Shown: positions 1 through 38,313 of the stretch, one piece after another
Layout: every line of letters starts with the position of its first letter
How positions within the stretch are numbered: position 1 is the stretch's first letter
Assembly (NCBI GenBank): GCA_964619725.1
Contig: CAZUFC010000034.1
Coordinates: 1 to 64,000 of the forward strand
Direction of reading: 5' to 3'
Length of the DNA stretch: 64,000 nucleotides
From: an uncultured bacterium
GTDB taxonomy: Bacteria > CSSED10-310 > CAZUFC01
Notes under the pieces: generated by a model
Databases searched by the model: none
Seen by the model: the letters and a program-made list of their open reading frames with translations, nothing else
What the model was told of the DNA's origin: nothing
Translations under genes and position numbers: made by a program

Positions 1-50
1 ATTTGTATTAGTCTATCAACTCAAGATTGCTCGCTTGGGATCCGGGATTA

Positions 51-1452: not shown

Positions 1453-1506
1453 AGAGTCTGTCCGCAAACTCGTTCAACGCATGAAAGATAAGCCCGGACA
1501 GGCGCT
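1453..1506. repeat. Small inverted-repeat element, related to the CTGTCC...GGACAG family
   Basis: AGAGTCTGTCCG (1453-1464) ... CGGACAGGCGCT (1495-1506), an imperfect IR. The right arm CCGGACAGGCGCT also occurs at ~50744-50756. Confidence 0.45.
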
Positions 1507-1550
1507 CCGAGTTTCTGATTTTCATTTGTGCAGCAAATCGAATATGGGTC

Positions 1551-1579
1551 TTGACAATACGGGGATGAAATAATATAAA
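1551..1579 (+). promoter_or_regulatory. Sigma70-type promoter of the giant gene
   Basis: TTGACA (1551-1556), 17-bp spacer, TATAAA (1574-1579). RBS-like CAGGAGGGG at 1729-1737 before ATG 1745. Confidence 0.65.
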
Positions 1580-1744
1580 AGGAAAGAATCGGTTTAACCA
1601 TAAGCTGGATTTTGTTTTGACGTCCTATTTGTTTTTCTTTTGAAGAAGAATTCAGCGCCGGGAAATTTAATTTTTTTTTGAGGATTTTGAAATCAAATTC
1701 ATGAAATTTTCAAAGATTTTAAAACTTTCAGGAGGGGTGTGCTC

Positions 1745-4700
1745 ATGAGGAGCATTTTTTCGTCTTTTCGGGTGTTTTTCCTTTTTTCTGTGATAGTTGC
1801 CATGATTTTTGCAGAGGTCATAGCGGGAGCTGCCTGGTATGGCGGCGGCTGGACCAAGCGTCAGTCGATAACGATAGATCATACGAAGGTTGATTCTGAT
1901 CTGAATGATTTTCCTGTATTGCTGACGGGGGCGAATGTTGATTCAACGCTGTTTGCAGGCGCTAAAAGCGACGGATCAGACATAGTTTTGACGGCTGACG
2001 ATGAGGTAACTCGGCTAAAGCGGGAGTTAGTGAGTTACGACGGTACGGCTGAGAGCATGGAGTTGTATGTAAGGGTTCCCCTGTTGTCGTCGAGTGTGGA
2101 CACGGTGATATACATTTATTACAGGAATTATTCGGCGAATGAGGCGAACGATCCTGACACCTGGGACGGTAATTATGTTTCTGTTTATCATATGTATGAT
2201 GGTCCTTCCAACACGATAACAGACAGTACGGTTAATGGATTTGACGGAACGAAGGGAGCAACCCTGAGCGTCGAGATAGACGGCAAAATAGGCGAGGCTC
2301 AAGACTTCGATCATTCGTGGATAGACTGCGGCGTTCATTCAGAGTTTAATTTACGTCAGTATTTCACGGTTGAATGCTGGGGATATCCTGACGCGAATCA
2401 ATATAACGGAGCGTTGGTAGCGCATGATATGAATTCGACGGGTCGTCAGTGGGATTTGATACAGATGGGTGGAAGCGGGACGTGTTACACGACGCTTCAG
2501 GTAAGGAAGAACAACAGCGATCAAAGGATTCACGGCGGTTATCCGACGATGAACGCCTGGAATCACATAGTCGCTGTATACAATTACACAACGGAGAAGG
2601 CGATATATTTAAACGGCGTGAAGTCATCGAATGCGGGTAACGGCGATCTTGACGATGCGCCTAATACGACCTTGCTGATCGGGACTCATTATGAGTATAC
2701 CTGGGGTCATCATCCCGGTTTTCTGGGAGGCATCGACGAATTAAGGATATCGAACGTTTCCCGGAGCGATGCATGGGTACTGGCGAGTTATCGGAACCAG
2801 GACGATCCGGCGGCATTTTCCTATGCAGGATCGGAGGAATCGGGTTGTGACGGAGATCAGGACGGTTATAGGAATCCTGATACTGATCCGTTGGATTGTC
2901 CGGGATTCCCGACAGAGCTTGACTGTGACGATTCTGATCCTAACACTTATCCGGGGGCGCCGGAGATATGCGATTACAAGGACAATCAGTGCGAGGGTGA
3001 TGCCGGATACGGTCAGGTGGATGAGGGAGCGGACCCGTTGGATAATGACGGGATATGTCCTGACGGCGATTTAAGCGGAACAGCGGGTGATGCGCCTTGT
3101 ACAGGAGGAGCGACGACTGATTGCGACGACAACTGCCCTGATGATGCGAATGCCGATCAGGCGGACGAGGACAGCGATGGAGTAGGAACGGTCTGTGATA
3201 ATTGTCCGGGGGATTACAATCCAGACCAGGCGGATTCTGACGGCGACGGTATTGGCGATTCCTGTGATTCCGACATCGACGATGACGGTATTTTAAACGA
3301 CGACGACAATTGTCCTGAGGTTTACAATCCGGACCAGGCGGATTCCGAGGAGGGGACTCCGAGCGGGATGGTCGGATATTGGACCTTTGACGACGGAGCG
3401 GGTTCAGAGGCATCGGATTATATGAATCAGCATCCCGGTTTGATACACGGAGCGACCTGGACGACGGGCAAGCTGGACGGAGCGTTAAGTTTTGACGGGA
3501 TAGACGATTACATTGATGTAGGAGATTTGGGGATAGAGGGAAATGACGCCCGCTCGATAGAATGTTGGTTTTATCCTTATGTGGATGAGACGCAAATGAG
3601 TTATTGGGAAGGACTGGCGACCATAGGCACGGACGACGGTCCTCAGCTTCATTCTTACGTTCTGTTGGTCAACAACGTAGATTCGCCGTGCGGCAGTCCC
3701 TATGTTCATACCATCGGCGGACATTATTATCTGTCCAATACTTGCGGGAATACGAAGGTAAGCGAACTGGGAATAAATCAATGGCATCACGCGGTACTGA
3801 CGCATAACGGCAGCCATCAGGAACTCTATATTAACGGGCAACTCGATGACTCCTCGGATTTAACTCTTGAAACTGATGCCGGCATAACGGTAATCGGCAA
3901 ACGGGCTATAGGAAACGGGGCATTTTTTGAAGGAAAAATCGATGAGGTTGCCGTATATAATCGAGCCTTGTCAGCATCTGAGATTGCTGATCATTACAAC
4001 AACGGATCAGGCAAGAAGTATGTTATAGAGGAAGGCGACGGAGTAGGCGACGTATGCGATAATTGTCCTGATGATTTCAATCCGGATCAGTCTGACGTGG
4101 ACGGCGACGGCATAGGCGACATGTGCGATGCCGATTATCATACGCCGACGCCTGTTCCGACGCCCTTGCCGCCGACTCCGACCATGCTCCCGACGGTAAT
4201 GTCGGAATGGAGCGAAGATACGACTGTCAATCTTAGCGTAGCTGATGTTTCAGATTATAAAAGCGGTCATCGCATCATAAACGACGGGACAGACGGATAC
4301 ATCGTCGTATGGACTAGCGATCTGGTGTATGCTCAGCGTTTCAGCGATACGGGCGTTAAAATGTGGGGACTTGACGGAGCCCTGGTGAGCACGAATGCAT
4401 CAAGCAACGGCTCTGCGCGAATATGCACCGACGGTTCCGGCGGCGCTTTGGTGTTCTGGAAGGATTCCAGAAACGGCAACGAAATATGGGGACAGCGTAT
4501 AAGCGGCTCCGGGCAGCGGCTATGGGACGACGAAGGCCTTCAAATATCACCTTCGGGCATCGATGCCGGTTGTGTTTTTGTTGTTTCAGATGATCAGGGA
4601 GGAGCATTCATAGCCTGGTATTACAACGGCGCCTACTGTCAACGCGTCGATTCGTCGGGAACGGTTTTATGGACGACTCAACTCGATCGTGAAAGCAATT

Positions 4701-7700
4701 CTCCCTGGGGAGTGAAACTCGAAAAGGACGGTCAGGGCGGCATTATATTAACCTGGTGCGCGCAGGTTTACGACGACGATGATATTTACGTTCAACGGGT
4801 GAACAGCGACGGGGAGAGACTCTGGGGACTTTACGGAACCTGCATTTGCAGTGCCAATGATACTCAATATTGTCCCAGAATACTGGCGGACGGTTCAGGA
4901 GGGGGATTGTTCCTGTGGATCGACGCTAGAGGAGGCATTGACCGTCTTTATATGCAGAAAGTCACATCCGGAGGTGTGGCCGATTGGAATGAAGATGGGA
5001 TATGCGTGTTTTACGGAGATAGCGACAGCTACGGACATGCTTTCGTTTCGGATGGAGCCGGCGGAGCTATCGTCACCTGGTTGTGCAATAATGACTCCAA
5101 CATGTATGCCTCCAGAATAGATGCTTCAGGCAATTCCGTATGGGGAGGCTATACCGCGTTGACCGACCATGGTCAGGTGAATGATGTATCGGATTCGCCT
5201 TACCAGACGGTCAGCGACGGAAGCGACGGCGCCATAGCCTTCTTCTCCATATATAACCAGACTGATTCACGCTACGAGATTCATGCTCAGAGGATTAAAC
5301 GCAACGGCGTTTTACCGTGGGGCATCAACGGAGTAGTCTTATGCGATAATGACACAGGGAATCGCAGTTGCGCCCGAGCTGCACCTTGTGAAGGCAATGA
5401 GGGCGGAGGTTTGTCATGCTGGCGCGACTACAGAAACGGAACAGGCGATCTTTTCGTTATGGGCATAGACATAAACGGTATAGCAGGGAATCCTTGCACG
5501 GCCATTGGGACGCCGACGCCTGCTTACAGCGCCACGCCAGAAGCGCCCACGCCTACTGTTGCACCGACTTCGACGACGAGCTGGAGTCTTATGGCGACGG
5601 AGGGATTGCGCGTATCAGAAAGTCAGACTAACCAGGACAGTCACAGGATCATAGCAGACGGTTACGGCGGATATATTGTCGTATGGTCGCATGATGAAGG
5701 ACAGGGCAAATTAGCTGACGTATGGGCTCAGAAATTCGATGAAAACGGGGCCAGGCTGTGGGGCGCCGAAGGGGTAAAAATATGCGCCAGAAACGGGGCC
5801 CAGGAATATCCCCGTTTGTGTTCGGACGGAGCTGGCGGAGCGTTTGTATTCTGGAAGGATGCCTGGAATTCGAATACCATATACGGTCAAAGGATAGGCG
5901 CTGACGGCATCACGCTATGGCAGGAAAACGGGATTCAATATGCAGCAACGGCAGCGGGAGCTTCCTGCCCGTTTGCTGCTTCTGACGACCAGGGCGGCGC
6001 TTACGTAATCTGGGATTCCAATACGGGAATCCATTGTCAAAGAGTCGATGCGAATGGAGTTCCCTATTGGGCGGAACCGCTGTTGCTGGCGGCGAACGGA
6101 ATGGGACCCAAAATCGCCGGCGACGGACAGGGCGGCGCGTTAGCTGTCTGGAACGAGGCGCGTGGAACAACGGGTGAAGATGTATATGTTCAGAGGCTGG
6201 CGCCCGACGGGACCAAGTTGTGGGGTGAAAATGATCTCTGCATATGTCAGAAAGCCAATAATCAGAACTGCGGCCGCGTCATCGGGGGCTCGGACGGTTC
6301 CGGCTTGTTTTTATGGGTGGATCAAACCAACAGCGAAGTTTATATGCAGAAGGTTTCAGCGGCCGGCGCAGCAGAATGGACTGCAGACGGCATTGAAGTC
6401 AGCGCGGGTCAATGCAACCAGGGGCATGCTTTCGTATCCGACGATAACGGCGGAGCGATTATTACTTATATAAAATCTCAAGAAAACAATTTATATGCGA
6501 AGCGGATCGATTCCACGGGTACGGAGGTTTGGGCGTCTGAAACCCAGTTGACGGATCACGGCGGCGTATATTTCATTTCTTATTCGCCCCATCAGACCGT
6601 TCAGGACGGACTGGGCGGAGCCATAACGTTTTTCACTTATGATAATTCTGGAGAATCCCGGTATGAAGTCGTCGCCCAGAGGGTTTCCGGCGACGGTTCT
6701 CTACCCTGGGGAATAAACGGAGCAGTATTAAATTATGCGGCCACGGGGACGCGGGAATGCGTCCGCGGCGTTTCGTGCAGCGCCGGCGGCGGAGGAGCGC
6801 TGGCTTGCTGGCCGGATACTCGAAACGGGACGAAGGACCTCTATGTAATGGGCATAGACGTTGACGGCTTATTAGGATACCCCTGTGCGCCTTTAGGTAC
6901 GCCGACGCCTGCGACGCCTTCGCCGACTCCGACGCCGACGATTCCATCAACCTGGAGCGACGATCCGTCGGTCAATCTGAGAGTCAGCAAAAATCAAATT
7001 CGACAGGATTCGAGTCTTCGGATTATTTCGGATGATCAGGGAGGATATGTGGTATCCTGGCTGTACGCAGGAGATGTCTATCCTCAAGGATTGTACGCAC
7101 AGCGATTTAATTCCGCGGGTAATCGCATGTGGGGGCCCGACGGAACGGCGATATGCACCGATACCGTGAAGACCTGGGGATCGCGCATGTGCAGCGACGG
7201 AACGGGAAGTATCTTTTTCTTCTGGACCGACGAACGCAATCCCAACGCCGAGGTATGGGGTCAGAAAGTCGATTCTGACGGAAACCTTTTATGGCCTGCA
7301 GGAGGAAAAAGAATATCGCCGGCCTGGTTGGACGCCAACTGTCCTTTCGCTGTTCCTGACGGAGAGGGCGGAGCCTTCATCGTATGGCAGGGCGACGGAG
7401 ATTTTTGTACCAGGATCAACGCTAATGGTGAATCGATGTGGAATGCACCAGTTCAACTAGGAAGCGCCAATTGGGGAAGTCCGAAAATCGCACTGGACGG
7501 AACCGGCGGAGTAATCGTTGCCTGGTATCAGTATGATTCATCGACTTCGAACGATATATACGCACAACGTCTTACTTCCGGCGGCGCTGAATTATGGGGA
7601 GCCGGTGGAATCTGCATATGCAACGGCAGTAATAATCAGGGGTGTCCGCGATTGACGTCGGATGGAGCCGGCGGCGGATTCTTCATATGGCGCGATCAGC

Positions 7701-10700
7701 GATATGGCTCGTATTACGCCGTCTTCATGCAGAGAGTATTGTCGGACGGAACCGTTGCCTTAAGAGGAGACGGAATAAGGGTTTCTCCTGATTACGTACA
7801 AAATTCCGGTCATTCGGTTACGACAGACGGAGCCGGCGGGGCTGTAATACTCTACTGCGGCAATGATTCCAATTTTTATGCACGTCGTTTTGATCATGAC
7901 TGCACAGACATTTGGGGCGGACCGGTTACTCTGACGGACCACGGCAATATCCAGGAAGTCGCCTACTCCCCTTATCAGGCCGTATCGGACAACAACGGGG
8001 GCGTCATCACGGTTTTCACGGCGTTAAACAGCGTGGAATCCAGATCGGAAGTCACTGCGCAAAGGATAACGTTAAATGGTAATCTTCCGTGGGGTATGAA
8101 CGGACTGACTCTCAGTCATTATTATGGCGGATGTCCCCGTGTCGCCGGTTGCCTGGAAGATACGGGAGGAGCTTTAGCATGCTGGTCGGATCAGAGGGAC
8201 GGTTCAGCTTCATTGTATGTAATGGGAGTAAACATAAACGGCGAATTGGGAGCGCCTTGTTGCTTGTTGCCTACGCCGGGACCTTCCACGCCCACGCCGA
8301 TGCCGACTGTCACCGCTACTCCCGAAGCGACTGCGGCATGGAGCGACGATCCTGCCGTGAATTTAAGAGTGTCTGAAACTCAAACGGCTCAGGACAGTCA
8401 TAGAATAATTGTCGACGGTTACGGTGGATATTTCGTAGTATGGGAAAATTCTCAGAACATATACATTCAGCATTTCGATCAGGACGGCAACCGTTTATGG
8501 GGACCGGAAGGACTGCTGATTTGTTGCGATTCCAATTCGCAGGAGAATCCGAGAATCTGTTCGGATGGCGCAGGCGGCGTTTTCTGTTACTGGACGGATT
8601 CCCGTACTGTCGGGACCTCTTCTTATGCCGTTTGGGGGCAGCATATCGGATGTGACGGAAACCTGTTATGGCGTGAAAACGGTATTAGAATATCACAGGA
8701 TGACGTAAATGCCGGTTGCTCCTTCTGCGTTCCCGATGATCAGGGAGGTTCTTACGTCATCTGGCAGTATGGCGGAGAAGGTTCTTATTGTCAGAGGATC
8801 GACCGTGAAGGGGAATGGATGTGGGCGCAACCTGTAAGCCTGGCCTTAGCCGGATGGGGAAACAAGATAGAGCAGGACGGTCAAGGCGGCGTACTGTTAT
8901 GTTGGTGCGACAACCGTGGAGAGACAGGAGACGACATTTACGTTCAAAGATTGGATGCTTCAGGCAGCAAGCTTTGGGGAACCCAAGATTTATGCGTCTG
9001 TCAGGCAACGGATTCACAGGAATGTCCCCGGATACTGGCCGACGGTTCGGGCGGAGCGTTCATACTTTGGTCCGACTACAGGGACGGAATGAACAAGCAG
9101 CTATATATGCAAAAAGTGAACTCGGCCGGTTTAACGGAATGGACCGAAGACGGGATTTGTCTGTATAGCGGTTCAACGGACGGACGCTGTCACAGTATAG
9201 TTCCCGACGGCAGCGGCGGGTTCCTGGCAGCCTGGAAGGACCTGACGGATTACAACAACATGTACGCCCTTCGTATAGACGCAACCGGTAATGATGTGTG
9301 GGGAGCGCCTCTGCAGTTGACCGATCACGGTGAGGCATTCCACCTGGCGTCCTCTCCCTATCAGATGGTTCTGGACAATGCCGGCGGAGCCGTGTTGTTT
9401 TTTACTCGAAACAATGCGACCGAAGGATATGAAGAAATAGACGCGCAAAGGATTATGCCCGACGGTTCTTTACCCTGGGGAGTAAATGGATTGACGCTGG
9501 CTTACAATGCCGCCGGCAATCGCAGATGCGCCCGGGGAGTTTCCTGTTCGACAGGCGGCGGAGGCGCCGTAGCCTGTTGGTCAGACACACGAGAAGGACA
9601 AAAAGTCCTTTATCTCATGGGCGTAGATTCTAACGGCGATATCGGCGATCCTTGTTATGCCGAAGGAACGCCCACACCGGTCGCTCCCTCGCCTACTCCG
9701 ACGCCTGTTCCGCCGTCGGAATGGAGCAGCGATCCGACGGAGAATCTTCGCGTAAGTAAAGTTCAGATAAATCAGCCCAACAGTTTCAAAATATTTTCGG
9801 ACGACGGAGGTTATTTCATATTGTGGGCTCATCGTGATTGTTCGAATGAATACAGCGTTCATATACAGAAATTTAATGCTTCGGGCGCACGGATGTGGGG
9901 AAATGACGGAATATGTCTCGATCAAGGAGACGTCGAAGATTGGGGAATGCGCATGTGCACGGACGCCTCAGGCGGCGCCGTAGCGTTCTGGACAGACTCC
10001 AGCGGTTCGCAATACGCTATAAAAGCTCAAAGAATAAGCAGCGACGGGAACATGTTATGGAATGAAGAAGGCGTATCTGTTTCGCCTTTCTGGCTTTCGG
10101 CCCGATGTCCCTGGGCGGCATCAGACGGTCAGGGCGGCGCATATATTTGCTGGCAAGGCGACGGCGTTTACTGTCAAAGAGTGGACTCGAACGGCAATAT
10201 AGCCTGGAACTATCCCAAACAGCTTTCAACCGACGCTTACGGCGGCATAAAACCTGCTCCTGACGGACAGGGCAACGTCTTGCTTGCGTGGTATTTCAAT
10301 GACGATACAACCGGTTATGATATCTATGTTCAGAAATTAGATCAGAACGGCACGGAATTATGGGGTTCAGGAGGTATCTGCATCGCTCAGGCTTCTAATG
10401 CCCAGCAATGTCCCCGCCTTGCAGCCGACGGTTCTGGGGGCGGATTCTTTATCTGGGAAGATCAGAGGTCAGGGTCTGCCAGTCTTTATATTCAGCATGT
10501 ACAGAGCGATGGAACCGTGTCGGGGCTTCAAAATGGAATTAATCTATCGTCAGGGACAGCAATCCAACAGGGTTATTCGGTAGTTTCCGACGGCACGGGA
10601 GGCGCTGTTGCGTGCTGGTGGGCTAATGACGGGAATATATATGCCAGGCGTGTCGATTCATATTTGTCTGATGTCTGGGGAACTTCCATACAGTTGACGA

Positions 10701-28700: not shown

Positions 28701-31700
28701 TGACGGTTACTGCGCACGGCGGTCTGCTGGGCAAGGTTCTCTTTGTCCCGGTCATAGACCATTACTTGCTGAACGGCTGTTCACATCTCGATTTCGAGCT
28801 GGCGCCGCTGTTCCAGCCCGGTGTTGATTATCTGTCCGGTCAGTTGAAAGCAGCGGCTGCAGGCGAAGAATACGTCATGCCGTTGACTTTCGCATGCGAA
28901 GCGCCCAAATCAATCTACGAGGTCGTCATACCGGGTTCCGAATACTGCTATCATATGGCATCCTGGTTCTGCACGAACAGACCGAACATTGCCATGAGGT
29001 TCCACACCGCAGCGCCGCTCGAGGATATCGATACTGCCGTGATTTATACGACGTTCCAGCCCGGCTGGGGAGGCGTAAAACCGCACAATATCGACCTGTA
29101 CGTCAACGGTAATTTGATCGGAGAACTAAACGACCTCATTCCCGACGGCACGTACGGTTTCGCTTTCGATCCGGCTTACCTGCACTTCAACCCCTACGGT
29201 TCCGCTACCAACACATTCTCCATCCTGACGCAGCATATGAACGGCGGCCACTACGTCGTATCGACCAACTCGTTGGCTATGCTTAGCCTGAATTCCACCA
29301 TCGGATACGTCTGCGCGGAAAACCAGGCGCAGGCCGATTCCCTGGCGCTGACCTTCCCGCATTTCTGCGATGAAATAACGTTCGATCTCGATCCCAGGGT
29401 GCAATCCACACGCATTCTGGATACGGCCGGCAATCCTGCAGGAACTTTCTATCCGGGAGAAACCGTCCAGGTGAGAGTCCGCGCTGAGAACCCTCATCCG
29501 CTTGATACCTACAATGTAACGTATACATTGAAGATAGATACGGACGGCGATACCGGAACAGTGGAATGGAACAGCCACGACGAAGGCGATGATTGGGTTA
29601 CGGTCATGGACCACAATGAAGAAGCCTACCATTCCTGGTACTGGACTATACCTCAAGGGTCTCCGATGATACAGCTTGCGATTGAAGTGCATGATACCAA
29701 TGATTATGAAGGCACGATATACGATGAGACCGGCTGGACCATGAGTTTCCACGTGGGCGGAGGAATAACCGGTTATGTGGTCGATGCGGTCACCGAACAG
29801 CCTATTGAAGGCGCAACAGTAACGGCAAGCGGCGGATACAACGATCCTGACGGCACGGATGAATACGGTTATTACGAGATACAGCGCATACCCAACGGAA
29901 CCTACAATGTTACGGCCGGCGCTGCAGGATATGCTCCGCAGACTCTGACCGGCCTGGAGGTCGAAGCGCAGATTCTGGTGAACCAGAACTTTGAATTGCT
30001 GATACCCACGGCCACAATGACCCCAACGATCACGCCGACACCGACGGTAACGCTCACCCCGACAAGCAGCGCCACGCCTACCGTGACCAGCAGCCCCACC
30101 GTTACAAACACTCCGACAATCAGTCCTACAAGAACGCCGAGTCCGTTGCCGACCTCAACCCATACGCCGACTCGTACTCCGACTCGAACGCCTTCACCCA
30201 CGCCGACTTTCACTCCTACGCCTGCTCCGGACCTGGTTCTGAGAACTCAGGACATCACTTTCGATCCGGCATACCCGGAAGAGGAGGAAGCAGCGATCAT
30301 ATCGGCTACTGTCCACAATTGGGGCAATCTCTCTTCAGGGACGTTCCATGTAAGGTTCTTTGCTGATTACGGCGCCGGGCCGCTTCAGGTCGGAAGCGAT
30401 CAGATTGCCGGACCGCTGGCGCCGGATGAATCCGTTACGGTATCCGAGTCCTGGACAGCCGTTTGCGGAGCGTCAGTCATCGCTACCGCAGACATACTGG
30501 ATGAAGTGGCTGAATCCGCTGAATCGAACAACACCGGCAGCAGAACAGCGCCTATACTCTATTGTCCGCTGGCCGTCACTCTTTCCATGACTCCTGAGTT
30601 GATCACTGCTCCTGTAGGAACAGAAACTGAATTCGACATCAGCGTCTCCAACGAAAACCTGGGACCTGATATCTTCGACTTGGATATCATAGGAACTCTG
30701 CCCTCAGCCTGGTACAATCTGAATCCCGATCAACTTATTCTCAACGCAGGCGAAACAGGCGAAGCGACGCTTCATATCGAAATACCTGATAATTGCGCTT
30801 ACATAGGAGACTATGCTTTCCAGGCTGTGGGGACGTCAGACATGATGGGTGAAATTTACACTGATGCAGGCGAGCTAGATGTCGTCAGCGAAGTTAACGT
30901 TTCAATGCGTCATCCTGTCAGCGGCACGACCAGCGGTTCAAGAGACGTTATGTTCAGTTGGCAGACTTCTGCAGCCGCCGATTCCACTCTGTATTACAGA
31001 GAACAGGGAGCCGGAAACTGGAACGAGGTCGCTGTAGCCCAAAACGCAACCAATCATCAGATAGAAATCGAAAGTCTCGAACGTAACGCGAGTTACGAAT
31101 GGTATATCTACGCTGTATCGCTCTGCGGAACAGTCACTACGCCGACCTGGGGCTTCTCCGTCAGCAACGGCGTCGTCTTCACTCAGGATACGTATCAGTT
31201 CACGGTGGAACGAGACTACGATCAGCATGTATGGGTCGCCGTTTACAACGAAGATGTCACGGCCCACGAAATCGAATTGCATATAACCAATCCCAACGAT
31301 GACTTGATAGTCAATTTCGTAGGACCGGGAAGCGAAGACGAGACAGTATTCCTGGCGCCGGGCGAAAACAGGGATATCGAGCTGGTCATTCATGCTCAGG
31401 ATGTGGAAGCGGATGAGCTGCTCGGTCAGGTATGCTTCGACAACACCATCCTGACGCTTACTGCGGATGAAGCTGGAGACCCTATAACCGACACGGCTCC
31501 TTCCACCATTTGCGTCACCTGGCCTGTCATCGACTTCACCATGACCGAAATAGCGGAAGCGCCCTACACGCTGATTAAAACTTTACGGGTAATGAACAAT
31601 GGCGATCCGTTGACCGACGTTACGGTGACTCCGCACGGCGGTCTGCTGGGACGCGTACTCTTCGTACCGGTAATCGATCATTACCTCCTGAACAGCGGAC

Positions 31701-34700
31701 AACATATCGATTTTGAGCTGGAACCGCTCTTCCAACCGGGAGACAATCTCCTTTCCGGACAATTGAAAGCGACGGCTGCGGGCGATGAGTACACGCTTCC
31801 TGTCAGCTTCAATTGCGAGGCGCCGAGTTCGATTTACGATGTGACGGTATTGGGCAGCGAATTCTGTTATGGGATGGCTGCATGGTTCTGCACGAACCGG
31901 CCCAATATATCCATGAGATTCCACGTATCTCTGGCCACCAGCGATGTTGACACCGCCGTAATTTACACCACATTCCAACCCAGATCGGGCGTGAGGCCTC
32001 ACTTTATCGACCTGTTCGTCAACAACCATCTGATTGGAGAATTGAACGACATTATACCTGACGGAACTTATGGATTCGCTTTCGATCCGGGATACCTCAA
32101 CATCAGTCCCGGCGGTTCGGCGACTAATACGTTCTCGATAAGAACGCAACATTTCAACGGCGGCCATTACGTGGTATCGACCAATTCCATGGCTATGCTG
32201 ACGATGGAATCGACAACGGCTCATGTATGCGCCGAGAGTCAGGCACAGGCCGATTCGCTGGCTTTGACCTTCCCGCATTTCTGCGATGACGTCACTTTTG
32301 ATCTCGATCCCAGGATTATGACCGTCAACGTGATGGACATGAGCGGCAACAACAGGAACTACTTCTACCCCGGCGATACTGTCAGAATAAGAGTCCGGGG
32401 GGAGAATCCTCACCCGCTGAATACTTACCATCTATCCTACACATTGAAGATGGATACCGACGGCGATACCGGCACCGTCGAGTGGGACAGCCATGAAGAG
32501 TTGGAGGATTGGGTAGTCGTATTCCCGCACAATGCTGACGAGTATCACTCGTGGTACTGGACGATTCCTTCCGGTTCGCCTAATGTGCAATTCAAGATCG
32601 AAGTGCATGACACGAACGACTATGGGAACACGATATATGACCAGACAGGTTGGGATTACAGCTTCCATGTGGGAGGCGGCATAACGGGTTACGTGAGAGA
32701 CGGAGTAACCATGGCGCCGATCGAGGGAGCTTCAGTAACGGCGAGCGGCGGACGTGCCGATCCCGATGGAACGGATGAAAACGGTTATTACGATATATCC
32801 AGAGTGCCGAACGGAACGTATAACGTCACAGCCGGCGCTCAGGGTTATGCCCCGCAGACTCTCCACAACGTGGTAGTTCAGGGAGGCATATTGGTCAATC
32901 AGGACTTCGAGCTTCTTATTCCCACTGCAACAATGACTCCCACCATAACGAACACGCCGACGGTAACGTTGACGCCTACGGTTAGTCCGACTCCGACAAT
33001 CACCAATACGCCTACGCTTTCGCCTACAGTGACTTTAAGCCCGACGAAAACCCCCAGTCCGCTTCCGACTTCCACGCCGACCAGGACGGCTACGGGCACG
33101 TGGACCCCGACGGCTACGCCGACCGACACGCCTCTGCCGGCGCCCGATCTTGTTATACGCAACCAGGATATCGGATTCGATCCGGATTACCCCGAAGACG
33201 GCGAAACCACGACCGTATCAGCAGCGGTTAACAACTTCGGAAATGATGCTTCAACATCCTGTTCAGTAAGGTTCTTCGCGGATACGGGCAGCGGACCGGT
33301 TCAAATCGGGTCGGATCAAAGCGTCGGAGCCCTGCTGCCGGATGAATCGCAGACCGTCTCGGTAACCTGGACGGCAGAATGCGATGCCGTAATATCGGCT
33401 GCAGCGGACATACTGAATGAGGTTTCGGAATCAAACGAAATGAACAATTCGGGACAACGCACCGCGCCTATCACTTATTGTCCGGACCAGATAACAGTCA
33501 GCATCGAACCCGGCAGCACGACAGCTACGGTGGATACGCAAACCGTTTTCACCGTCAATGTGACTAACCTGAACCTCGGCATTGACGCTTTCGATCTCTC
33601 GCTGCAGGGACTGCTGCCTGTCGGATGGACGGATATCGATCCCGCTCAGTTGATTCTTAATGCCGGCGAAACCGGTCAATCAACGCTGACGGTCGATATA
33701 CCCGACAATTGCGGTTCCGTCGGTTCCTACCCGTTCCAGATACTGGCGCATTCCACGGAATTAAACGGCGACTATACGGATGATGCGACGCTGGAAGTCG
33801 TTGCTCCCATCTCCATTACGGAACGTTACCCGGTATCGGGAACCACCGTCGGAGGCCGCGATGTAGTATTCAGTTGGAACACTTCCGCTGAAGCTGACTG
33901 CACCTTGTATTACAGGGATTCAACCTCTGGTTTCTGGAACTCGGTCACTGTCCTGGGAAGCGTTTTGAATCATTCCATTGAATTGGAAGACCTGATGCGC
34001 AACGAAACATACGAATGGTACGTGCATGCGGAATCTTTGTGCGACAGCGCTGATTCTCCCACCTGGACATTCACGGTCGGCAACGGCGTCATCTTCTCAC
34101 AATCCTCTTATCAGTTCACCGTTCAACGGGATTACGATCAGCATGTGCAGGTTGAAGTTTACAACCAGGATGTCATCGCTCATGACGTAGCTCTGCACAT
34201 CGATAATCCCAACGATATTCTGATCGTCAATTTCGTCGGACCGGGAAGTGAAGATGAAACTGTTACGCTGGCTCCGGGCGAATACAGAGATATCGAACTG
34301 GTCATACATGCACAGGATGTCGGTCCTGAACTGGCCGGGCAGGTCTGTTATCCCAATATAGCAGTCACTCTGACCGCTGACGAGGATACCGATCCCATCA
34401 CTGATTCCGCTCCCACGGAAATTTGCGTGCAATGGCCGGTGATCGACTTTGCGCTTACCGAACAGAGCGAAGACCCGTTCACCCTGGTCAAGACGATAAG
34501 AGCGGCCAATAACGGCGATCCGCTGACCGATCTGGACGTTATCGCCCAGGGAGGTCTGCTGGGGCGCGTCATCTTCGTGCCTGTCGTCGAACATTACCGG
34601 TTGACTTCCGGTTCCCATATCGATTTTGAAGTGGAACCCCTCTTCCAACCGGGAGATACCTCCCTGTCAGGTTCATTGCTGGCGAGTGCAGCGGATGATG

Positions 34701-37700
34701 ATGTCGTTCTGCCGTTGACGTTTGCCTGCGAAGCGCCCAGGAGCATCTTCCAGGCGACTGTACCGGGTTCGGAATACTGCTACAGCATGGCCAACTGGTT
34801 CTGTACGAACAGACCGAACATAAGCATGAGGTTCCATACCTCTGCAGCGCTTGAAGATATAGAAAGCGCCGTGATCTACACCACATTCGATCCCAGACCG
34901 AACGTGCGGCCGCACTTCATAGACCTGTTCATCAACGGACATTTGATCGGCGAATTGAACGATCTGATACCCGACGGCACATACGGCTTCGCATTCGATC
35001 CAGCCTTACTGCACTTCAATCCGAACGGCTCTGCCTCCAATAGCTTCGCTATAAGAACGCAACACTTCAACGGAGGGCATTACGCCATTACCTCTAATTC
35101 CCTGGTATTCCTGACGCTGAAACCAACGACGGCTTACGTCTGCGCCGAAGATCAGGCCCAGGCCGATGCCATTGCCCAGACATTCCCCCATTACTGCGAT
35201 GAAATTACCTTCGATCTTGATCCGAGAGTCCTGACGGTCCAGACCAGGAACGAAATGGGACAGGTCGCTCATACTTTCTATCCGGGCGATACGGTTGAAA
35301 TCAGTTTAAGAGCGCAGAATCCGCATCCCATGTACAACTACGATACGACCTTCACCCTGAAGATCGATACCGACGGAGACACGGGAACCGTTGAATGGAA
35401 CAGCCATGACGAAGGCGAAGATTGGGTCGTGTTGCTTGATCATAATGCTGATGAGCTGCATTCCTGGTTCTGGACGGTACCGTCAGGTTCGCCCAATATT
35501 CAGTTTACCATTGAAGCGCATGACACCAACGATTATGAAGGGACCCTCTACGACGAACCGGGTTGGAACTGGAATTTCCATGTCGGCGGCGGCATTACGG
35601 GATTCGTGAGAGACGATGATACCATGCAGCCTGTTGAAGGCGCATCCGTCACAGCGAGCGGCGGCTACAACGATGCGGATGGAACGGATGAAAACGGTTT
35701 CTACGAAATCCAGCGCATACCGAACGGAACTTACAATGTGACGGCAGGAGCTGTCGGTTATGTGCCGGGAACCCTGACTGACGTTGAAGTATCAAGCGAC
35801 GTGCTGGTGAACCAGGATATCTACCTGTTGATACCTACAGCCACCATGACGCCGACCGTAAGTCCCACGCCGACGGTTACGCTGACGCCTACGACGAGTC
35901 CCACCCCGACGGTCACAGCTTCGCCTTCGCCTACCTTCACCAATACGCCGATAGGAACGTTAACGCCGACGGAAACCCCGACATTGACGCCCACGCCGGA
36001 ACCGACAGGCACGCCTACTGTACCGCCCATGGTCGTATGGGTGGACGACGACTGGACCGGCAGCAAACCCGGAGATATCGTCGACGGACACGTCTTCGGA
36101 TACGATGCTTTCGCGACAGTCAACGACGCGCTCGCCGCCATCGATGCCGGCGGCGTCATTAACGTGCATTCCGGTTCCTACAATGAAACCGTCCTCTTCG
36201 GCCCTGCATTCCAGAAAAACGGCATTCAGCTCACAGGCGAAACCGGAAATCTACCCGTCATTGACGGCGGCGTTAAATTCCAGAATTACAGCGACCTGGA
36301 CGGCATTACCATTGAAAACCTCTACCTGCAGGGATACGCCGGATACCAGAGAATCGTGCAGATGACCAATTCCGGCGCCATCGAAAACTTCACCATGAAC
36401 AATTGCGTGCTTGACGGACAAAATGTTTCCAACCGTGACGGATTCTACGGCAATAAACTCACAGGAACATTGACGATAACCGATTGCGAATTCAAGAACA
36501 TTCTGGGAAGCTACGTCATGGATACCGATCCTGCGGCCCCAGGTCCCGAAGGAAACAACGAATACGCGTTCACGACTGTTGACTTCACAGGAAACAACAT
36601 CCACGACTGCAACGGCGGTACGGCGCTCAGAGGCAACAACGGCGATCCGACGGATGAGGTTAACGTCTACAATAACCTGTGGTCCAACATCGGCGGCGTT
36701 CAGGGAGAAACAGGCAAGTTCCATTCCGCCCTGGAAATAAACCATGCTTCTGAGGCAAACATCTACGACAATACCCTTTCCGACGTTTCCCTGGGACAGG
36801 GCGGCGAAGGACAGGCCGTCAGACTCTGGGATATTGAAGGACTGGGCATGTATTGCAACGATATACTCAGTAATGCCCAGGGCATATTCATCTTCGGAGG
36901 CGGAGGCATTTACGGAGGACCCTTCAATGTGCCCGGCGGATTCATCCAGTACAACAACATCGCCGGTAATTCAGACTACGGCCTTACGGTCGACGGCGAT
37001 GCCCTCGGCGGTCCCGTTAAAGCCGATTACAACTACTGGGGAGCCCCCGACGGTCCTTCCGGATGGGGCACAGGCGCCGGCGACGAAGTCTGGGGAGCCG
37101 TCACTTACGATCCGTGGCTCAGCTACGAACAGGGCGATCCCTGTCCTCCCGATTGCAGAAACGACGGCGACGTCGACAACAACGGAAGACTCTCACCCGG
37201 CGACGGACTGCTCTCCTTCCAGATTTACATGGAAACCATCCCCTATCCCACACTCGAAGAACAATGCTCCGCAGACTGCAACGGCAACTTCATGGTCACC
37301 CCGGAAGACGCTCAGTGCATTTTCTGGTCATACCTGGGTCTGGGCTGCGATTGCGTCGATCCCATTGCTAAATCAGGACCCGCTGCAGGCAAAAAACTCA
37401 AACCCATAACCGATCCCAGAACCGGAACCATCTCCATAGGACCCAAAAACATCTACGGATGCAACAGCGAAACCATCAAAATACCCATAGCAGTCAGCGG
37501 AATGTCATCCGCCGTCAACGCATTCGCCCTCGAATTCGAATTCGATCCCGATATGCTCAGATTCGTCTCCGCAGACAAAGGCGATACGATCAGCGACTTC
37601 GATTACTTCGGAGCCAATGAATTACAATCAGGAACGCTGAGAATCGGCGGATTCGATCCCGACACTAGCTCAGTCTCCAGCAGCAACGGCATACTCACCG

Positions 37701-37969
37701 TCCTCACATTCAAAGTCGAATGCGAATCATGTATAAACGGCGACAGCTCCATACTGAAACTGGAAAACCTCGATGACGACATCGCCGGCATCAACATTCA
37801 GAACGGTAACTTCATCTACGACTGCGAAGGCTTCTTCCCCACTCCCATTCCCACTCCCATGTTCAATCGCATTCCTGTCCTCGGCGGAACTGGCATCATG
37901 CTTCTGATTCTCCTCTTCGGCGCCTTCTTCATTACATCGAACGCCGTCATGAAAAAGAAAATTAAATAA
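1745..37969 (+). CDS. Giant (~12,070 aa) modular secreted surface protein, putative adhesin or scaffold, with C-terminal IP-anchor
   Basis: Single open frame in the ORF track (GTG 1739; ATG 1745 is better spaced from the RBS). Signal peptide; DUF2341+LamG; DNCP/DxDxDG TSP3-type repeats; second LamG; 7 propeller-like modules; 2 FG-GAP+Fn3 blocks; 6 CARDB/Ig/CarboxypepD_reg-like supermodules; beta-helix; dockerin-like and cohesin-like domains; tail [32 protein letters not shown]. Confidence 0.95.
4208..13920 (+). repeat. Seven tandem ~460-aa modules (probable beta-propellers) in the giant protein, separated by P/T linkers
   Basis: Module starts (Trp of WSxxxxxxLxV) at 4208, 5582, 6953, 8339, 9722, 11102, 12587. 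Internal ~60-aa repeats of type DGxGG...W.D.R....Y.QR...G..W...G. Confidence 0.9.
14070..18470 (+). repeat. Two tandem FG-GAP/VCBS propeller + Fn3-like blocks in the giant protein
   Basis: Repeated DW(N/D)xDGKxDLL Ca-binding loops. Both blocks start AGGPPEF/AAGPPEF and end with TSPAE...[10 protein letters not shown]...TYYYR.F..D.VLP.YS. Confidence 0.88.
18521..36025 (+). repeat. Six tandem ~975-aa supermodules (CARDB + Ig/Fn3-like + WFCTNRP domain + CarboxypepD_reg-like + P/T stalk)
   Basis: Starts at 18521, 21452, 24368, 27305, 30224, 33140 (period ~2.92 kb). Each has (A)PDL...QDI.F, E.NE.NN-type CARDB end, [12 protein letters not shown], WFCTNRP, HxNGGHY, [14 protein letters not shown], GGGITG.V.D and PNGxY.VTAG. 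Confidence 0.92.
37154..37828 (+). other. Dockerin-like duplicated Ca-binding segment followed by a cohesin-like domain
   Basis: [19 protein letters not shown]...[18 protein letters not shown] gives two F-hand-like loop-helix units. It is followed by TIKIPIAV...[18 protein letters not shown]...[10 protein letters not shown], a cohesin-like strand pattern. Confidence 0.72.
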
Positions 37970-37989
37970 ACCTTAAGCGTAAAACGAAA

Positions 37990-38032
37990 AAAGCGCCTGC
38001 TCATCTCCATTGATGATCAGGCGCTTTGGTTT
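37990..38032 (+). terminator. Probable intrinsic terminator of the giant gene
   Basis: AAAGCGCCTG-c-TCATC ... GATGA-t-CAGGCGCTTT hairpin ~20 nt after the stop, followed by T-rich ggtttctt. Confidence 0.65.
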
Positions 38033-38109
38033 CTTGCCGGATAGAGACTAAATAAAACGAAAACACATTAAAAATGTATCCGATGTCGTGATCATTGTCG
38101 TTGTAGAAC

Positions 38110-38144: not shown

Positions 38145-38184
38145 TAGATGTTTAACCAAAACTCAAAATTATAACAAAAAATAC

Positions 38185-38252
38185 AGGGACAAAGGGACCT
38201 AAGGGACCTAAGGGACCTAAGGGACAGAAGGGACCTAAGGGACAGAAGGGAC
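38185..38252 (+). repeat. 9-bp tandem repeat AGGGAC(CTA/AGA), 8 cores
   Basis: AGGGACAA, AGGGACCTA x3, AGGGACAGA, AGGGACCTA, AGGGACAGA, AGGGAC, read directly. Confidence 0.9.
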
Positions 38253-38313
38253 GCCTTGAACATAAAATCATTTGTATAAGCAAAAACAGTCATTGGAAAA
38301 TTAAACCTCTCTA

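What the first reader, a model, noticed from the sequence alone, without database searches (positions are those of the whole stretch)
1745..37969. A 36-kb single ORF encoding a ~12,070-aa non-enzymatic giant protein with no visible outer-membrane export signal
Seen: one stop-free frame with its own promoter (1551-1579) and terminator (37990), a Sec-type signal peptide and a C-terminal membrane anchor. It contains at least eight distinct module types, each amplified in a block. It has no RTX nonapeptides, autotransporter barrel or T9SS-like C-terminal domain, although the FadL-type gene implies an outer membrane. Repeats are diverged at the DNA level, which argues against assembly-driven inflation. 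Inference: a >1 MDa adhesin or scaffold whose route to the surface is unexplained.
Basis: partly seen in the sequence, partly recalled or inferred. Interest (0 to 1): 0.82.

Follow-up and report, generated by a model that had tools for sequence, protein, structure and literature searches.

The report
Giant surface protein with exosortase tag
A real 36-kb gene encodes a 1.3-megadalton modular cell-surface protein whose supposed membrane anchor is most likely one of about 200 cleavable sorting tags in this genome, pointing to a dedicated sorting enzyme rather than an unexplained export route.

Summary
The ORF is real: window 1745-37969 (+), 12,074 aa, no internal stop. Its repeats share only 64-72% DNA identity and no 31-mer. 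Contigs from four metagenome runs of one study match the 3' 20 kb without a difference. The 5' 16 kb was not checked against reads.

Architecture: signal peptide, DUF2341/LamG/TSP3 head, 7 beta-propeller units, 2 FG-GAP+FN3 units, 6 Ig-rich ~960-aa units, a beta-helix, one cohesin and a C-terminal tail.

The "membrane anchor" is better read as a sorting tag. The consensus is (I/V)-P-A-x-(S/G)-x-x-G, then a TM helix, then basic residues. About 205 ORFs end this way, including 20 of the 36 frames of 2,500 aa or more; controls gave none.

The genome has one exosortase/archaeosortase gene, closest to XrtH and ArtB but below both cut-offs. It occurs in 14 of 14 genomes of the phylum, probably CSSED10-310.

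The likely route is Sec, then exosortase processing. The outer-membrane step stays open, as for all exosortase cargo; two GspL+secretin loci and one Wza-type gene are candidates. No orthologue with this architecture was found. This is a new variant of known kinds, of moderate interest.

The parts
1551..1579 (+). sigma-70-like TTGACA-17-TATAAA upstream of the gene
   Evidence: Read. The promoter scan did not list it. It is a consensus resemblance only.
1730..1735 (+). AGGAGG ribosome-binding site, 9 nt before ATG 1745
   Evidence: Read.
1745..37969 (+). Giant ORF: 12,074 aa plus stop, 1.30 MDa, pI 4.1
1745..1825 (+). Probable Sec signal peptide (aa 1 to about 27)
   Evidence: Read by eye (Arg2, Arg9, hydrophobic core). 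No predictor was run.
1826..4201 (+). N-terminal head: DUF2341, two Laminin_G_3 (ConA-like) domains, thrombospondin type-3 Ca-binding repeats, PT linker
   Evidence: Laminin_G_3 122.5 bits (2 stretches), TSP_3 33.4 bits, DUF2341 23.8 bits against a cut-off of 23.4. MtsC-like TSP3 region, 90.3 bits, far below its 350 cut-off.
4202..13933 (+). Seven B units of about 445 aa, each a beta-propeller, joined by PT linkers
   Evidence: 42-49% identity. AF2 model of unit 1: pLDDT 86.7, pTM 0.88, all beta. Foldseek PDB top hits are the CylK propeller (E 1.2e-12) and the 7-bladed lectins PHL, PLL and CV39L. No Pfam family found.
14042..18526 (+). Two C units of about 740 aa: FG-GAP/VCBS-type propeller plus FN3
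   Evidence: 51.5% identity. FG-GAP_3 199.9 bits in 8 stretches; fn3 26.3 bits.
18512..35953 (+). Six D units of about 960 aa: CARDB, FN3-like (Pur_ac_phosph_N), an unassigned Cys-containing core, a Wzt_C/MG2-like Ig domain, CarboxypepD_reg and a long PT linker
   Evidence: The AF2 model of a whole unit failed (pLDDT 46.9). The core has no clear relative (Atlas 0.85; PDB profile search found only Ig and CarboxypepD_reg matches).
36032..37144 (+). Probable right-handed parallel beta-helix (NosD/Beta_helix-like)
   Evidence: Atlas feature scores 0.94-0.96 to NosD/Beta_helix/DUF1565 clusters. Pfam gave no hit here. This is a lead, not a test.
37151..37342 (+). Dockerin-like pair of Ca-binding loops ([12 protein letters not shown] ... 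[12 protein letters not shown])
   Evidence: Read by eye. PF00404 did not match it at E<=0.001.
37469..37726 (+). Cohesin module
   Evidence: PF00963: 37.5 bits and 40.4 bits against a cut-off of 24.1. Weak match to cellulosomal cohesin chains in PDB (E 0.004).
37871..37966 (+). C-terminal sorting tag IPVLGGTG + TM helix + KKKIK
   Evidence: 23.9 bits (E 2.7e-5, rank 176 of 17,805 tails) against an HMM built from 160 other tails of this genome, with the giant held out. No NCBIfam CTERM model hit it.
37992..38035 (+). Intrinsic-terminator-like hairpin plus U-rich run
   Evidence: -27.6 kcal/mol, z -5.08. The simple scan did not list it.
27..1256 (+). Upstream 409-aa paralogue of the giant's head (DUF2341 + LamG) with its own tag
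   Evidence: 65% DNA identity, 592-1149 against 2260-2819; 24.3 bits.
42812..47329 (+). Another tagged protein in the window, 1,505 aa, no Pfam family
   Evidence: 34.0 bits.
52556..55975 (+). Another tagged protein in the window, 1,139 aa, beta-helix (Beta_helix/NosD)
   Evidence: 27.5 bits.

Best explanation
The gene encodes a 1.3-MDa acidic beads-on-a-string surface protein. It consists of lectin-like and Ig-like modules joined by Pro/Thr linkers.

Proposed route:
1. An N-terminal signal peptide takes it through Sec (inferred).
2. The C-terminal tail, IPVLGGTG + TM helix + KKKIK, holds it in the inner membrane (inferred).
3. The genome's single exosortase-family enzyme, an XrtH/ArtB-like short form with invariant Cys96, Arg137 and His156, cleaves at the (I/V)P motif and probably transfers the protein to another molecule (inferred from family knowledge).
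4. The protein then crosses the outer membrane by a route that is not known. Candidates are one of two GspL+secretin loci, or export coupled to a polysaccharide through the Wza-type protein (speculative).

Outside the cell, the propellers, LamG, CARDB and Ig modules would bind glycans or other surfaces in the microbial mat. The cohesin could dock dockerin-bearing proteins.

The giant is the largest of about 205 tagged proteins. It looks like a concatenation of module sets that occur separately in smaller paralogues of the same genome.
For: Shown by the sequence:
- The ORF and its modules.
- The tag family. At 20 bits or more, 205 of 17,805 ORF tails match the tag HMM, against 0 reversed tails and 0 mid-protein segments. 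The giant's tail, held out of training, scores 23.9 bits.
- The tag consensus, from 201 of the 205 tails: I55/V41 - P100 - A64 - x - S27/G27 - x - x - G82, then L/I-rich residues.
- Tag frequency rises with frame length: 22 of 14,170 frames of 100-300 aa, 95 of 3,259 of 300-1,000 aa, 68 of 340 of 1,000-2,500 aa, and 20 of 36 of 2,500 aa or more.
- Tagged ORFs of 300 aa or more have a signal-peptide-like start in 129 of 180 cases, against 1,087 of 3,382 untagged ORFs. This is a crude heuristic.

The enzyme:
- There is one exosortase/archaeosortase gene at G000:C134:12958-13527(-). It scores 65.7-67.9 bits on TIGR04178 (cut-off 23) and 35.5 bits on PF09721.
- A tagged 879-aa gene lies next to it.
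- Its best subtype models are ArtB (model name archaeo_VPXXXP, 78.2 bits) and XrtH (76.6 bits).
- Consistently, the best CTERM models on the tails were IPTL_CTERM (4 of 10 tails, 1 over the cut-off), midcut_by_XrtH (6 of 10, none over the cut-off) and VPxxxP/VPAMP (1 each).
- Cys96, Asn134, Arg137 and His156 are invariant in 10 of 10 homologues.

Conservation:
- The exosortase is found in 14 of 14 genomes of the phylum, with a conserved downstream membrane protein. In the one relative scanned with Pfam, an S41 peptidase and two GT1 glycosyltransferases lie nearby.
- The same tag occurs on 3 ORFs in a 396-kb sample of relative G005, and on metagenomic homologues P0035 and P0037.

The cell is diderm: 6 Omp85 matches and 7 secretins. 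GspL-like genes lie 4-4.5 kb upstream of two of the secretins. There is one Poly_export (Wza-type) match.

Published model for exosortase cargo: Sec, then tethering by the tag, then exosortase processing, then an undefined outer-membrane route (PMC12188702, passages). GlyGly-CTERM and MYXO-CTERM cargo need a T2SS (bioRxiv 10.1101/2023.06.07.544157, passages).
Against: - The giant's own tail hit no NCBIfam CTERM model at E<=10. Only 1 of the 10 tails tested passes the IPTL_CTERM cut-off.
- The exosortase is below the curated cut-off of every subtype (XrtH 76.6 against 86; ArtB 78.2 against 150).
- No cleavage, transfer or surface location has been observed, and no RNA run was listed.
- All 14 phylum genomes carry the enzyme, so there is no negative set for a co-occurrence test.
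- 160 of the 205 tagged tails were the HMM's own training set, and one training row is probably a chance antisense frame.
- Myxosortase/CPBP-type proteases were not searched for.
- Passing a 1.3-MDa protein through a T2SS secretin or a Wza channel has no precedent that I know of (from memory).
- The binding functions are inferred from folds only. TM-scores to propeller lectins are about 0.5-0.65 at 12-15% identity.
Confidence: 0.6

Rival explanations
1. The tail is a permanent anchor. The protein is exported by Sec and stays tethered to the inner membrane by its uncleaved C-terminal helix, filling the periplasm or reaching outward. This is the 'SP+TM' reading applied to giant proteins in other phyla.
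For: The giant has a signal-peptide-like start and a single C-terminal TM helix. Its tail passes no curated CTERM model. A 2026 preprint on Omnitrophota giants reads the SP+TM class as secreted and membrane-anchored (10.64898/2026.06.07.730766, passages).
Against: A plain anchor needs no conserved (I/V)PAx(S/G)xxG motif placed right before the helix in about 205 proteins. It also needs no basic cluster at the extreme C-terminus, and no phylum-wide exosortase with an invariant Cys/Arg/His. From general knowledge, a 12,000-aa chain of folded propellers is hard to fit in a periplasm.
Confidence: 0.15
2. The protein is mainly an enzyme-bearing, cellulosome-like scaffold. The beta-helix would be a polysaccharide-degrading domain, and the cohesin would recruit dockerin enzymes, so the protein serves polymer degradation or predation rather than adhesion. 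This concerns function and is compatible with the exosortase route.
For: A beta-helix lead scoring 0.94-0.96. A cohesin over the Pfam cut-off. The genome holds 31 cohesin matches (30 over the cut-off) and 11 dockerin matches. West-Roberts et al. propose attachment and cell-wall digestion for dockerin-type giants (10.1101/2023.11.21.568195, sections 9 and 12 read).
Against: There is only one cohesin in 12,074 aa. No catalytic family passed a Pfam cut-off with a matched stretch; GH43 scored 32.3 against 32.2 bits with 0 stretches, which reflects propeller likeness. Pfam did not call the beta-helix. No binding was tested.
Confidence: 0.15
3. The ORF is an assembly artefact. It would be a chimera, or an inflation, of the many paralogous modular genes of this metagenome-assembled genome.
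For: The genome is a MAG of 344 contigs with 6.5% contamination. The same modules occur in 30 other ORFs. Read evidence came only as short Logan contigs, from one study. One weak joint was seen in X2 (21406->27284, side 21), and loose ends cluster near 27250-27300, which is PT-linker DNA.
Against: No 31-mer recurs within the gene, and only 14 are shared with other contigs. X1 contigs tile 18000-37999 with 0 differences at a flat depth of 8.2-8.9. Single contigs bridge the C2/D1 and D6/beta-helix junctions. X2 covers 30 of 30 bins with identical pieces. The frame stays open for 36 kb across every junction. Paralogues are only 51-63% identical in protein.
Confidence: 0.05

Closest known systems
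Exosortase/archaeosortase sorting systems, especially XrtH with IPTL-CTERM and ArtB with VPXXXP-CTERM (NCBIfam TIGR04177/TIGR04174 and TIGR04144/TIGR04143)
   Same: The tag is tripartite: a short motif, a TM helix and a basic cluster at the extreme C-terminus. Many cargo proteins share one enzyme. The enzyme is a short (190-aa) multi-pass membrane protein with invariant Cys, Arg and His. XrtH/ArtB and IPTL/VPxxxP are the nearest models for enzyme and tag respectively. The P-to-G spacing of the motif equals that of IPTLxxWG (that signature is recalled, not from a call).
   Different: The enzyme is below both subtype cut-offs. The motif is (I/V)PAx(S/G)xxG, and most tails, the giant's included, fail TIGR04174. 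The cargo set is very large: about 205 ORFs, with 248,823 aa in those of 300 aa or more. It includes 20 of the 36 frames of 2,500 aa or more. The lineage is a barely studied candidate phylum (PMC8248873 main text read, no mention of this).
PEP-CTERM/exosortase (XrtA, CrtB) systems of diderm bacteria
   Same: Both work in a diderm host. In relatives the exosortase lies near glycosyltransferases. The expected route is Sec, then tethering, then processing (PMC12188702).
   Different: There is no PEP motif; only 1 of 10 tails reaches the TIGR02595 cut-off (16.6 against 16). The enzyme is a short form, not the protein with eight or more TM helices that Haft's preprint describes for the PEP-CTERM sorting enzyme (passage). 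In this genome no EPS genes were identified beside the enzyme. The ORFs beside it on contig C134 were listed, and only two of them were scanned with Pfam, without a hit.
Large (10,000 aa or more) and giant bacterial surface proteins of uncultivated phyla (West-Roberts et al. 2023, bioRxiv 10.1101/2023.11.21.568195)
   Same: Size class. Thrombospondin type-3 repeats, dockerin/cohesin-type modules, beta-propellers and beta-helix. A C-terminal TM region. Proposed roles in attachment (sections 5, 9 and 12 read).
   Different: My regex found one TM-like stretch in the giant, and Pfam found no SecA/DEAD, C39 peptidase or acetyltransferase domain. Neither that paper nor the 2026 Omnitrophota preprint uses the words exosortase or PEP-CTERM (0 occurrences). 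The best giant-sized relatives of the head share 27-34% identity over 24-72% of the 820-aa query region (rows P0001-P0008).
Cellulosomal anchoring scaffoldins
   Same: A cohesin module close to a C-terminal cell-anchoring signal. Dockerin-bearing proteins are present in the same genome.
   Different: There is one cohesin, not an array. The anchoring signal is an exosortase-type tag rather than SLH or LPXTG. The host is diderm. No cellulase context was seen.

Membership tests
Exosortase/archaeosortase family (the enzyme at G000:C134, not in the window) | Match to the family signature model TIGR04178 over its cut-off | tested here: met
   67.9 and 65.7 bits against a cut-off of 23. PF09721: 35.5 bits against 25.7.
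Exosortase/archaeosortase family (the enzyme) | Conserved Cys, Arg and His in the membrane core (their catalytic role is recalled from the literature, not from a call) | tested here: met
   C96, R137 and H156 (and N134) are invariant in 10 of 10 aligned homologues.
Exosortase H (XrtH, TIGR04177) | Score over the curated cut-off of 86 bits | tested here: not met
   76.6 bits.
Archaeosortase B (TIGR04144) | Score over the curated cut-off of 150 bits | tested here: not met
   78.2 bits.
IPTL-CTERM sorting domain (TIGR04174) | The giant's tail matches the model over the 20.5-bit cut-off | tested here: not met
   No hit at E<=10 for the giant's last 60 or 141 aa. Of 10 tails tested, 4 hit and 1 passed (21.6 bits).
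C-terminal sorting tags in general (tripartite CTERM domains) | Signature motif, then a hydrophobic TM segment, then a basic cluster, at the extreme C-terminus of many proteins in one proteome | tested here: met
   205 tails at 20 bits or more against 0 in two controls. The held-out giant tail scores 23.9 bits. Consensus. The definition is taken from passages seen.
C-terminal sorting tags in general | Cleavage of the tag by the cognate enzyme | not testable with these tools
   Needs proteomics or a reconstituted assay.
GlyGly-CTERM/rhombosortase | A rhombosortase (TIGR03902) in the genome | tested here: not met
   Best score 43.7 bits against a cut-off of 84. Generic rhomboids matched in all 14 control genomes, none over the cut-off.
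RTX adhesins (T1SS) | Ca-binding nonapeptide repeats (HemolysinCabind) | tested here: not met
   No match in five Pfam scans covering aa 1-12074.
Autotransporters/T5SS | A C-terminal beta-barrel translocator domain | tested here: not met
   No Pfam match. The C-terminus is cohesin plus tag.
T9SS cargo | A C-terminal Por_Secre_tail domain | tested here: not met
   No PF18962 match in the giant, although the same library found it in P0142. The genome-wide TIGR04183 search was uninformative because the controls were silent.
Cellulosome-type scaffoldin | Cohesin module(s) that bind dockerins | tested here: inconclusive
   One cohesin over the cut-off and 11 dockerin matches in the genome. Binding was not tested.
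Omnitrophota-type giant proteins (Archaeovorin or dockerin type) | Numerous TM regions and a divergent SecA DEAD domain (abstract and section 9 of 10.1101/2023.11.21.568195) | tested here: not met
   My regex found one TM-like stretch, at the C-terminus. No SecA family in the Pfam scans.

The most novel reading that the evidence does not exclude
The candidate phylum that holds this genome (probably CSSED10-310) uses a so far unclassified short exosortase and an (I/V)PAx(S/G)xxG tag as its main pathway for displaying surface proteins. In this genome the pathway has expanded to about 205 cargo proteins, among them megadalton proteins. If so, the single C-terminal 'TM anchors' reported on giant proteins of other uncultivated phyla may also be cleavable sorting tags, and an exosortase system can handle cargo of more than 1 MDa across a diderm envelope.
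Probability: 0.35. Interest if true: 0.6.

Novelty: new variant of a known kind. Interest (0 to 1): 0.45.

Why it matters
Proteins of 10,000 aa or more are known from many uncultivated phyla, but how they are exported and attached is mostly unaddressed. Two papers on giant proteins that I searched do not mention exosortases or C-terminal sorting tags. A library search for 'exosortase' together with 'giant protein' found nothing.

Here the largest protein of a 9.2-Mb genome carries a recognisable tag that it shares with about 200 other proteins, and the genome has one candidate sorting enzyme. That turns 'route unknown' into a testable pairing of tag, enzyme and active-site Cys. It also gives a natural extreme cargo for asking how exosortase substrates cross the outer membrane, which a 2025 cyanobacterial study calls unclear.

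Two by-products:
- A widespread propeller repeat (35,551 cluster representatives) for which 6 of 6 members scanned gave no Pfam hit over the gathering cut-off with a matched stretch on the propeller.
- A clear case of a giant gene built by concatenating module sets that exist separately in paralogues.

Tried and rejected
- Expression: no RNA holder was listed for the gene.
- Read support: only Logan contigs were available, and only for 18000-37999 (the cap is one call). Listed X1 pieces leave 27549-27559 without a listed bridge. One X2 joint (21406->27284, side 21) and loose ends near 27250-27300 lie in PT-linker DNA and were judged to be repeat noise, not structure.
- AF2 of a whole D unit failed (pLDDT 46.9), so no fold search was run on it.
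- A PDB profile search with the D units gave only Ig and CarboxypepD_reg matches. The Atlas gave no clear relative for the D core (0.85).
- NCBIfam on the giant's C-terminus gave no CTERM model.
- The genome-wide TIGR04183 (T9SS tail) search was uninformative because nothing matched in the controls either.
- PF03934 (GspK) matched in 10 of 14 controls, Gram-positives included, so I did not use it as T2SS evidence.
- Orthologue searches:
  - Head, among proteins of 5,500-17,500 aa: 34 hits, none close.
  - B7/C1 junction, in JGI metagenome contigs: 9 loci, all matching only the FG-GAP part at 28-43% identity.
  - D unit, in 30 related genomes: only the CarboxypepD_reg/linker part matched.
  - D core, among proteins of 1,701-4,855 aa: 9 hits. 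Two are this genome's own, one is a foreign protein at 55% identity (P0037) and six are at 27-35%.
- Supplementary files of the papers were not consulted. Supplements of 10.1101/2023.11.21.568195 may list large proteins of other phyla that bear on the claim that no orthologue exists.


Full report
**1. The observation**

The window holds one open frame from 1739 (GTG) or 1745 (ATG) to 37969 on the + strand. A stop-free run of 12,000 codons cannot arise by chance in DNA of about 53% G+C.

The window is bases 1-64000 of contig C34 (66,295 bases). C34 belongs to a metagenome-assembled genome of 9.17 Mb in 344 contigs, 90.9% complete and 6.5% contaminated. The frame is the longest in that genome. 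The next is 8,482 codons, and 36 stop-to-stop frames reach 2,500 codons.

A hairpin at about 37992-38025 followed by a U-rich run folds at -27.6 kcal/mol (z -5.08). The simple terminator scan did not list it. TTGACA-17-TATAAA at 1551-1579 is present, but the promoter scan did not list it.

**2. Is it an assembly artefact?**

The repeat copies are 64-72% identical in DNA. None of the gene's 36,195 31-mers recurs within it, and only 14 occur on other contigs.

Four runs of one microbial-mat metagenome study hold the DNA: X1 with 0.99 of the sampled words (possibly the source), X2 0.57, X3 0.24 and X4 0.11. These were laid on 18000-37999:
- X1 contigs tile the stretch with 0 differences at a flat depth of 8.2-8.9.
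- Single contigs bridge the C2/D1 and D6/beta-helix junctions.
- X2 covers 30 of 30 bins with identical pieces.

The weak points are these. All the evidence is short contigs from one study. The listed X1 pieces leave 27549-27559 without a listed bridge. One poorly supported X2 joint and several loose ends fall in Pro/Thr-linker DNA. I put the artefact reading at about 5%.

**3. Anatomy**

Self-comparison and Pfam scans covering the whole protein give the following order.

| Residues | Part | Evidence |
|---|---|---|
| 1 to about 27 | Signal-peptide-like start | By eye |
| up to 819 | Head: DUF2341, two Laminin_G_3 domains, thrombospondin type-3 repeats | |
| 820-4063 | Seven B units of about 445 aa, 42-47% identical | |
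| 4100-5594 | Two C units, 51.5% identical: FG-GAP_3 (199.9 bits, 8 stretches) plus FN3 | |
| 5590-11403 | Six D units of about 960 aa, 55-61% identical: CARDB, FN3-like, an unassigned Cys-containing core, Wzt_C/MG2-like Ig, CarboxypepD_reg, a 40-50-aa PT linker | |
| 11430-11800 | Resembles right-handed beta-helix proteins (Atlas 0.94-0.96) | |
| about 11803-11866 | Dockerin-like loop pair | By eye only |
| about 11909-11994 | One cohesin (37.5-40.4 bits against a cut-off of 24.1) | |
| 12043-12074 | Tail IPVLGGTG + hydrophobic helix + KKKIK | |

The B unit has no Pfam family. Its AF2 model is confident (pLDDT 86.7, pTM 0.88, all beta). It matches beta-propellers, led by CylK and the seven-bladed sugar-binding lectins PHL, PLL and CV39L.

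A profile of the seven B units finds 35,551 cluster representatives at E<=0.001. I scanned six of them with Pfam. None gave a hit over the gathering cut-off with a matched stretch on the propeller, and one carries a T9SS tail.

The whole protein is 1.30 MDa with pI 4.1. The whole-unit D model failed (pLDDT 46.9).

**4. The tail is a sorting tag**

Printing the C-termini of the large frames showed the same ending again and again. I built an HMM from 160 such tails, leaving the giant out, and scored the last 60 aa of all 17,805 complete frames of 100 aa or more.
- 205 tails reach 20 bits.
- No reversed tail does (maximum 15.4 bits), and no mid-protein segment does (maximum 11.2 bits).
- The held-out giant scores 23.9 bits (E 2.7e-5).

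The consensus is PT-rich linker, I/V (55/41%), P (100%), A (64%), x, S/G, x, x, G (82%), a Leu/Ile-rich helix and then basic residues.

The tag becomes more frequent with frame length:

| Frame length (aa) | Tagged | Share |
|---|---|---|
| 100-300 | 22 of 14,170 | 0.2% |
| 300-1,000 | 95 of 3,259 | 2.9% |
| 1,000-2,500 | 68 of 340 | 20% |
| 2,500 or more | 20 of 36 | 56% |

Tagged frames of 300 aa or more have a signal-peptide-like start in 129 of 180 cases, against 1,087 of 3,382 untagged ones. That heuristic is crude.

Three more tagged genes lie in the window: 27-1256 (a paralogue of the giant's head), 42812-47329 and 52556-55975.

I tested ten tails against NCBIfam. IPTL_CTERM hit four and passed its cut-off in one. 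midcut_by_XrtH hit six weakly. PEP_CTERM reached its cut-off in one. The giant's own tail hit nothing.

**5. The enzyme**

The genome holds one exosortase/archaeosortase gene, at G000:C134:12958-13527(-), 190 aa. It scores 65.7-67.9 bits on TIGR04178 (cut-off 23). Its best subtype models are archaeosortase B (model archaeo_VPXXXP, 78.2 bits against 150) and exosortase H (76.6 against 86). It therefore belongs to the family but to no curated subtype.

A tagged 879-aa gene lies beside it. Homologues at 52-57% identity lie in MAGs titled 'candidate division CSSED10-310 bacterium'. All 14 of 14 genomes that the tool places in the window's phylum have the gene. The phylum is therefore probably CSSED10-310. 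The one paper on that phylum that I read in full (main text) predicts Gram-negative cells and says nothing about sorting systems or giant genes (PMC8248873).

Cys96, Asn134, Arg137 and His156 are invariant in 10 of 10 homologues. Their catalytic role is recalled from the literature.

A membrane protein follows the gene in all the loci. In the one relative scanned with Pfam, an S41 peptidase and two GT1 glycosyltransferases are nearby.

The tag is not private to this genome. Three clear examples occur in a 396-kb sample of relative G005, and the metagenomic homologues P0035 and P0037 end the same way. No rhombosortase passes its cut-off.

**6. The route**

The cell is diderm: six Omp85 matches, seven secretins and the FadL gene.

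The published model for exosortase cargo has four steps: Sec export, tethering by the tag, processing by the exosortase, and an outer-membrane step described as 'currently unclear' (PMC12188702, passages). GlyGly-CTERM and MYXO-CTERM cargo need a T2SS (bioRxiv 10.1101/2023.06.07.544157, passages).

This genome offers two loci with a GspL-like gene 4-4.5 kb upstream of a secretin, on C26 and C23, and one Wza-type gene.

It remains open for the outer membrane. No secretion genes flank the giant in the window.

**7. How the giant arose**

HMMs of the modules, scored against all frames of 300 aa or more, find them in 31 frames:
- B units: 27 in 4 frames.
- C units: 29 in 11 frames.
- D units: 24 in 15 frames.
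- Beta-helix: 7 frames.
- Head: 5 frames.

Smaller paralogues carry simpler sets: B9-D2 (C8, C2), C3-5-D1 (C132, C60, C126) and D2-helix-cohesin (C7, C182). The giant is head + B7 + C2 + D6 + helix + cohesin + tag, which is a concatenation of these sets.

Close D copies (51-63% identity) are abundant in this genome. In 30 related genomes only the CarboxypepD_reg/linker part matched. In the large protein database there is one foreign protein at 55% identity and six at 27-35%.

No orthologue with the giant's architecture turned up. The best giant-sized relatives of the head share 27-34% identity over 24-72% of the 820-aa query region (rows P0001-P0008). The B7/C1 junction was not found in JGI contigs. 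Records of the window's own genome may be hidden from these searches.

**8. Comparison and verdict**

Proteins of 10,000 aa or more are known from many phyla and are read as attachment or cell-wall-degrading factors (10.1101/2023.11.21.568195, sections 5, 9 and 12). This protein lacks the many TM regions and the SecA domain of the Omnitrophota giants.

Exosortase systems and IPTL-type tags are curated in NCBIfam. New here are an unclassified enzyme subtype with a variant motif, its phylum-wide presence, the size of its cargo set and a 1.3-MDa cargo protein. Neither giant-protein paper uses the words exosortase or PEP-CTERM. A library search for 'exosortase' plus 'giant protein' returned nothing, as did 'exosortase' plus 'IPTL-CTERM'.

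I rate it a new variant of known kinds, interest 0.45. The function (adhesion or glycan binding, perhaps docking through the cohesin) is inferred from folds alone, and 'non-enzymatic' is unproven because of the beta-helix.

Noticed in passing
window 38183-38255: About eight tandem copies of a 9-nt unit (AAGGGACCT, with AAGGGACAG variants) lie in the intergenic stretch just after the giant gene's terminator (read).
   Followed up: no
window 27-1256 (+): A 409-aa gene directly upstream is a paralogue of the giant's DUF2341+LamG head. It shares 65% DNA identity over 558 nt and ends in its own sorting tag (24.3 bits).
   Followed up: partly
window, minus strand inside the giant gene (stop-to-stop frame of 525 aa covering ORF 25112-25825): An antisense frame ends in a tag-like tail (VPAAG..., 19.3 bits). 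It is probably a chance product of the reverse complement of PT-linker DNA. It was among the HMM's 160 training rows.
   Followed up: partly
B units, window 4202-13933, and proteins P0035-P0184: The propeller blade repeat of the B units matches 35,551 cluster representatives at E<=0.001 (8,558 at 1e-30). In 6 of 6 members scanned, no Pfam family passed its cut-off with a matched stretch on the propeller. One member carries a T9SS Por_Secre_tail, so the same module travels with different sorting signals.
   Followed up: partly
G000 genome-wide: Tagged frames of 300 aa or more sum to 248,823 aa. That is about 8% of one third of the genome length in codons. The genome has 36 frames of 2,500 aa or more. 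Its size of 9.17 Mb compares with 2.6-6.1 Mb for 12 of its 13 phylum relatives; the other is 9.2 Mb.
   Followed up: partly
G000:C276:3493-3651 and C277:903-1061: Two small contigs give identical dockerin matches (same score, same 578-aa frame). They may be duplicated or redundant contigs in the bin.
   Followed up: no
G005:C26:13379-13948 (L051): A 190-aa frame with a perfect tag lies just downstream of a hit inside a 5,762-aa frame on the same strand. This could be a frameshift or a split giant gene in the relative.
   Followed up: no
window 46001-48000: GC skew drops to -0.435 at the 3' end of the tagged 1,505-aa gene (42812-47329), which matches no Pfam family. The cause is probably its long Pro/Thr/Ser-rich region.
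   Followed up: no
L025-L033 (relatives' exosortase loci): Gene order around the exosortase is conserved: a TPR protein, the exosortase, a membrane protein matching no family, an S41/PDZ peptidase on the other strand, and two GT1 glycosyltransferases. An RpoD-like gene lies upstream. Only L027 was scanned with Pfam.
   Followed up: partly
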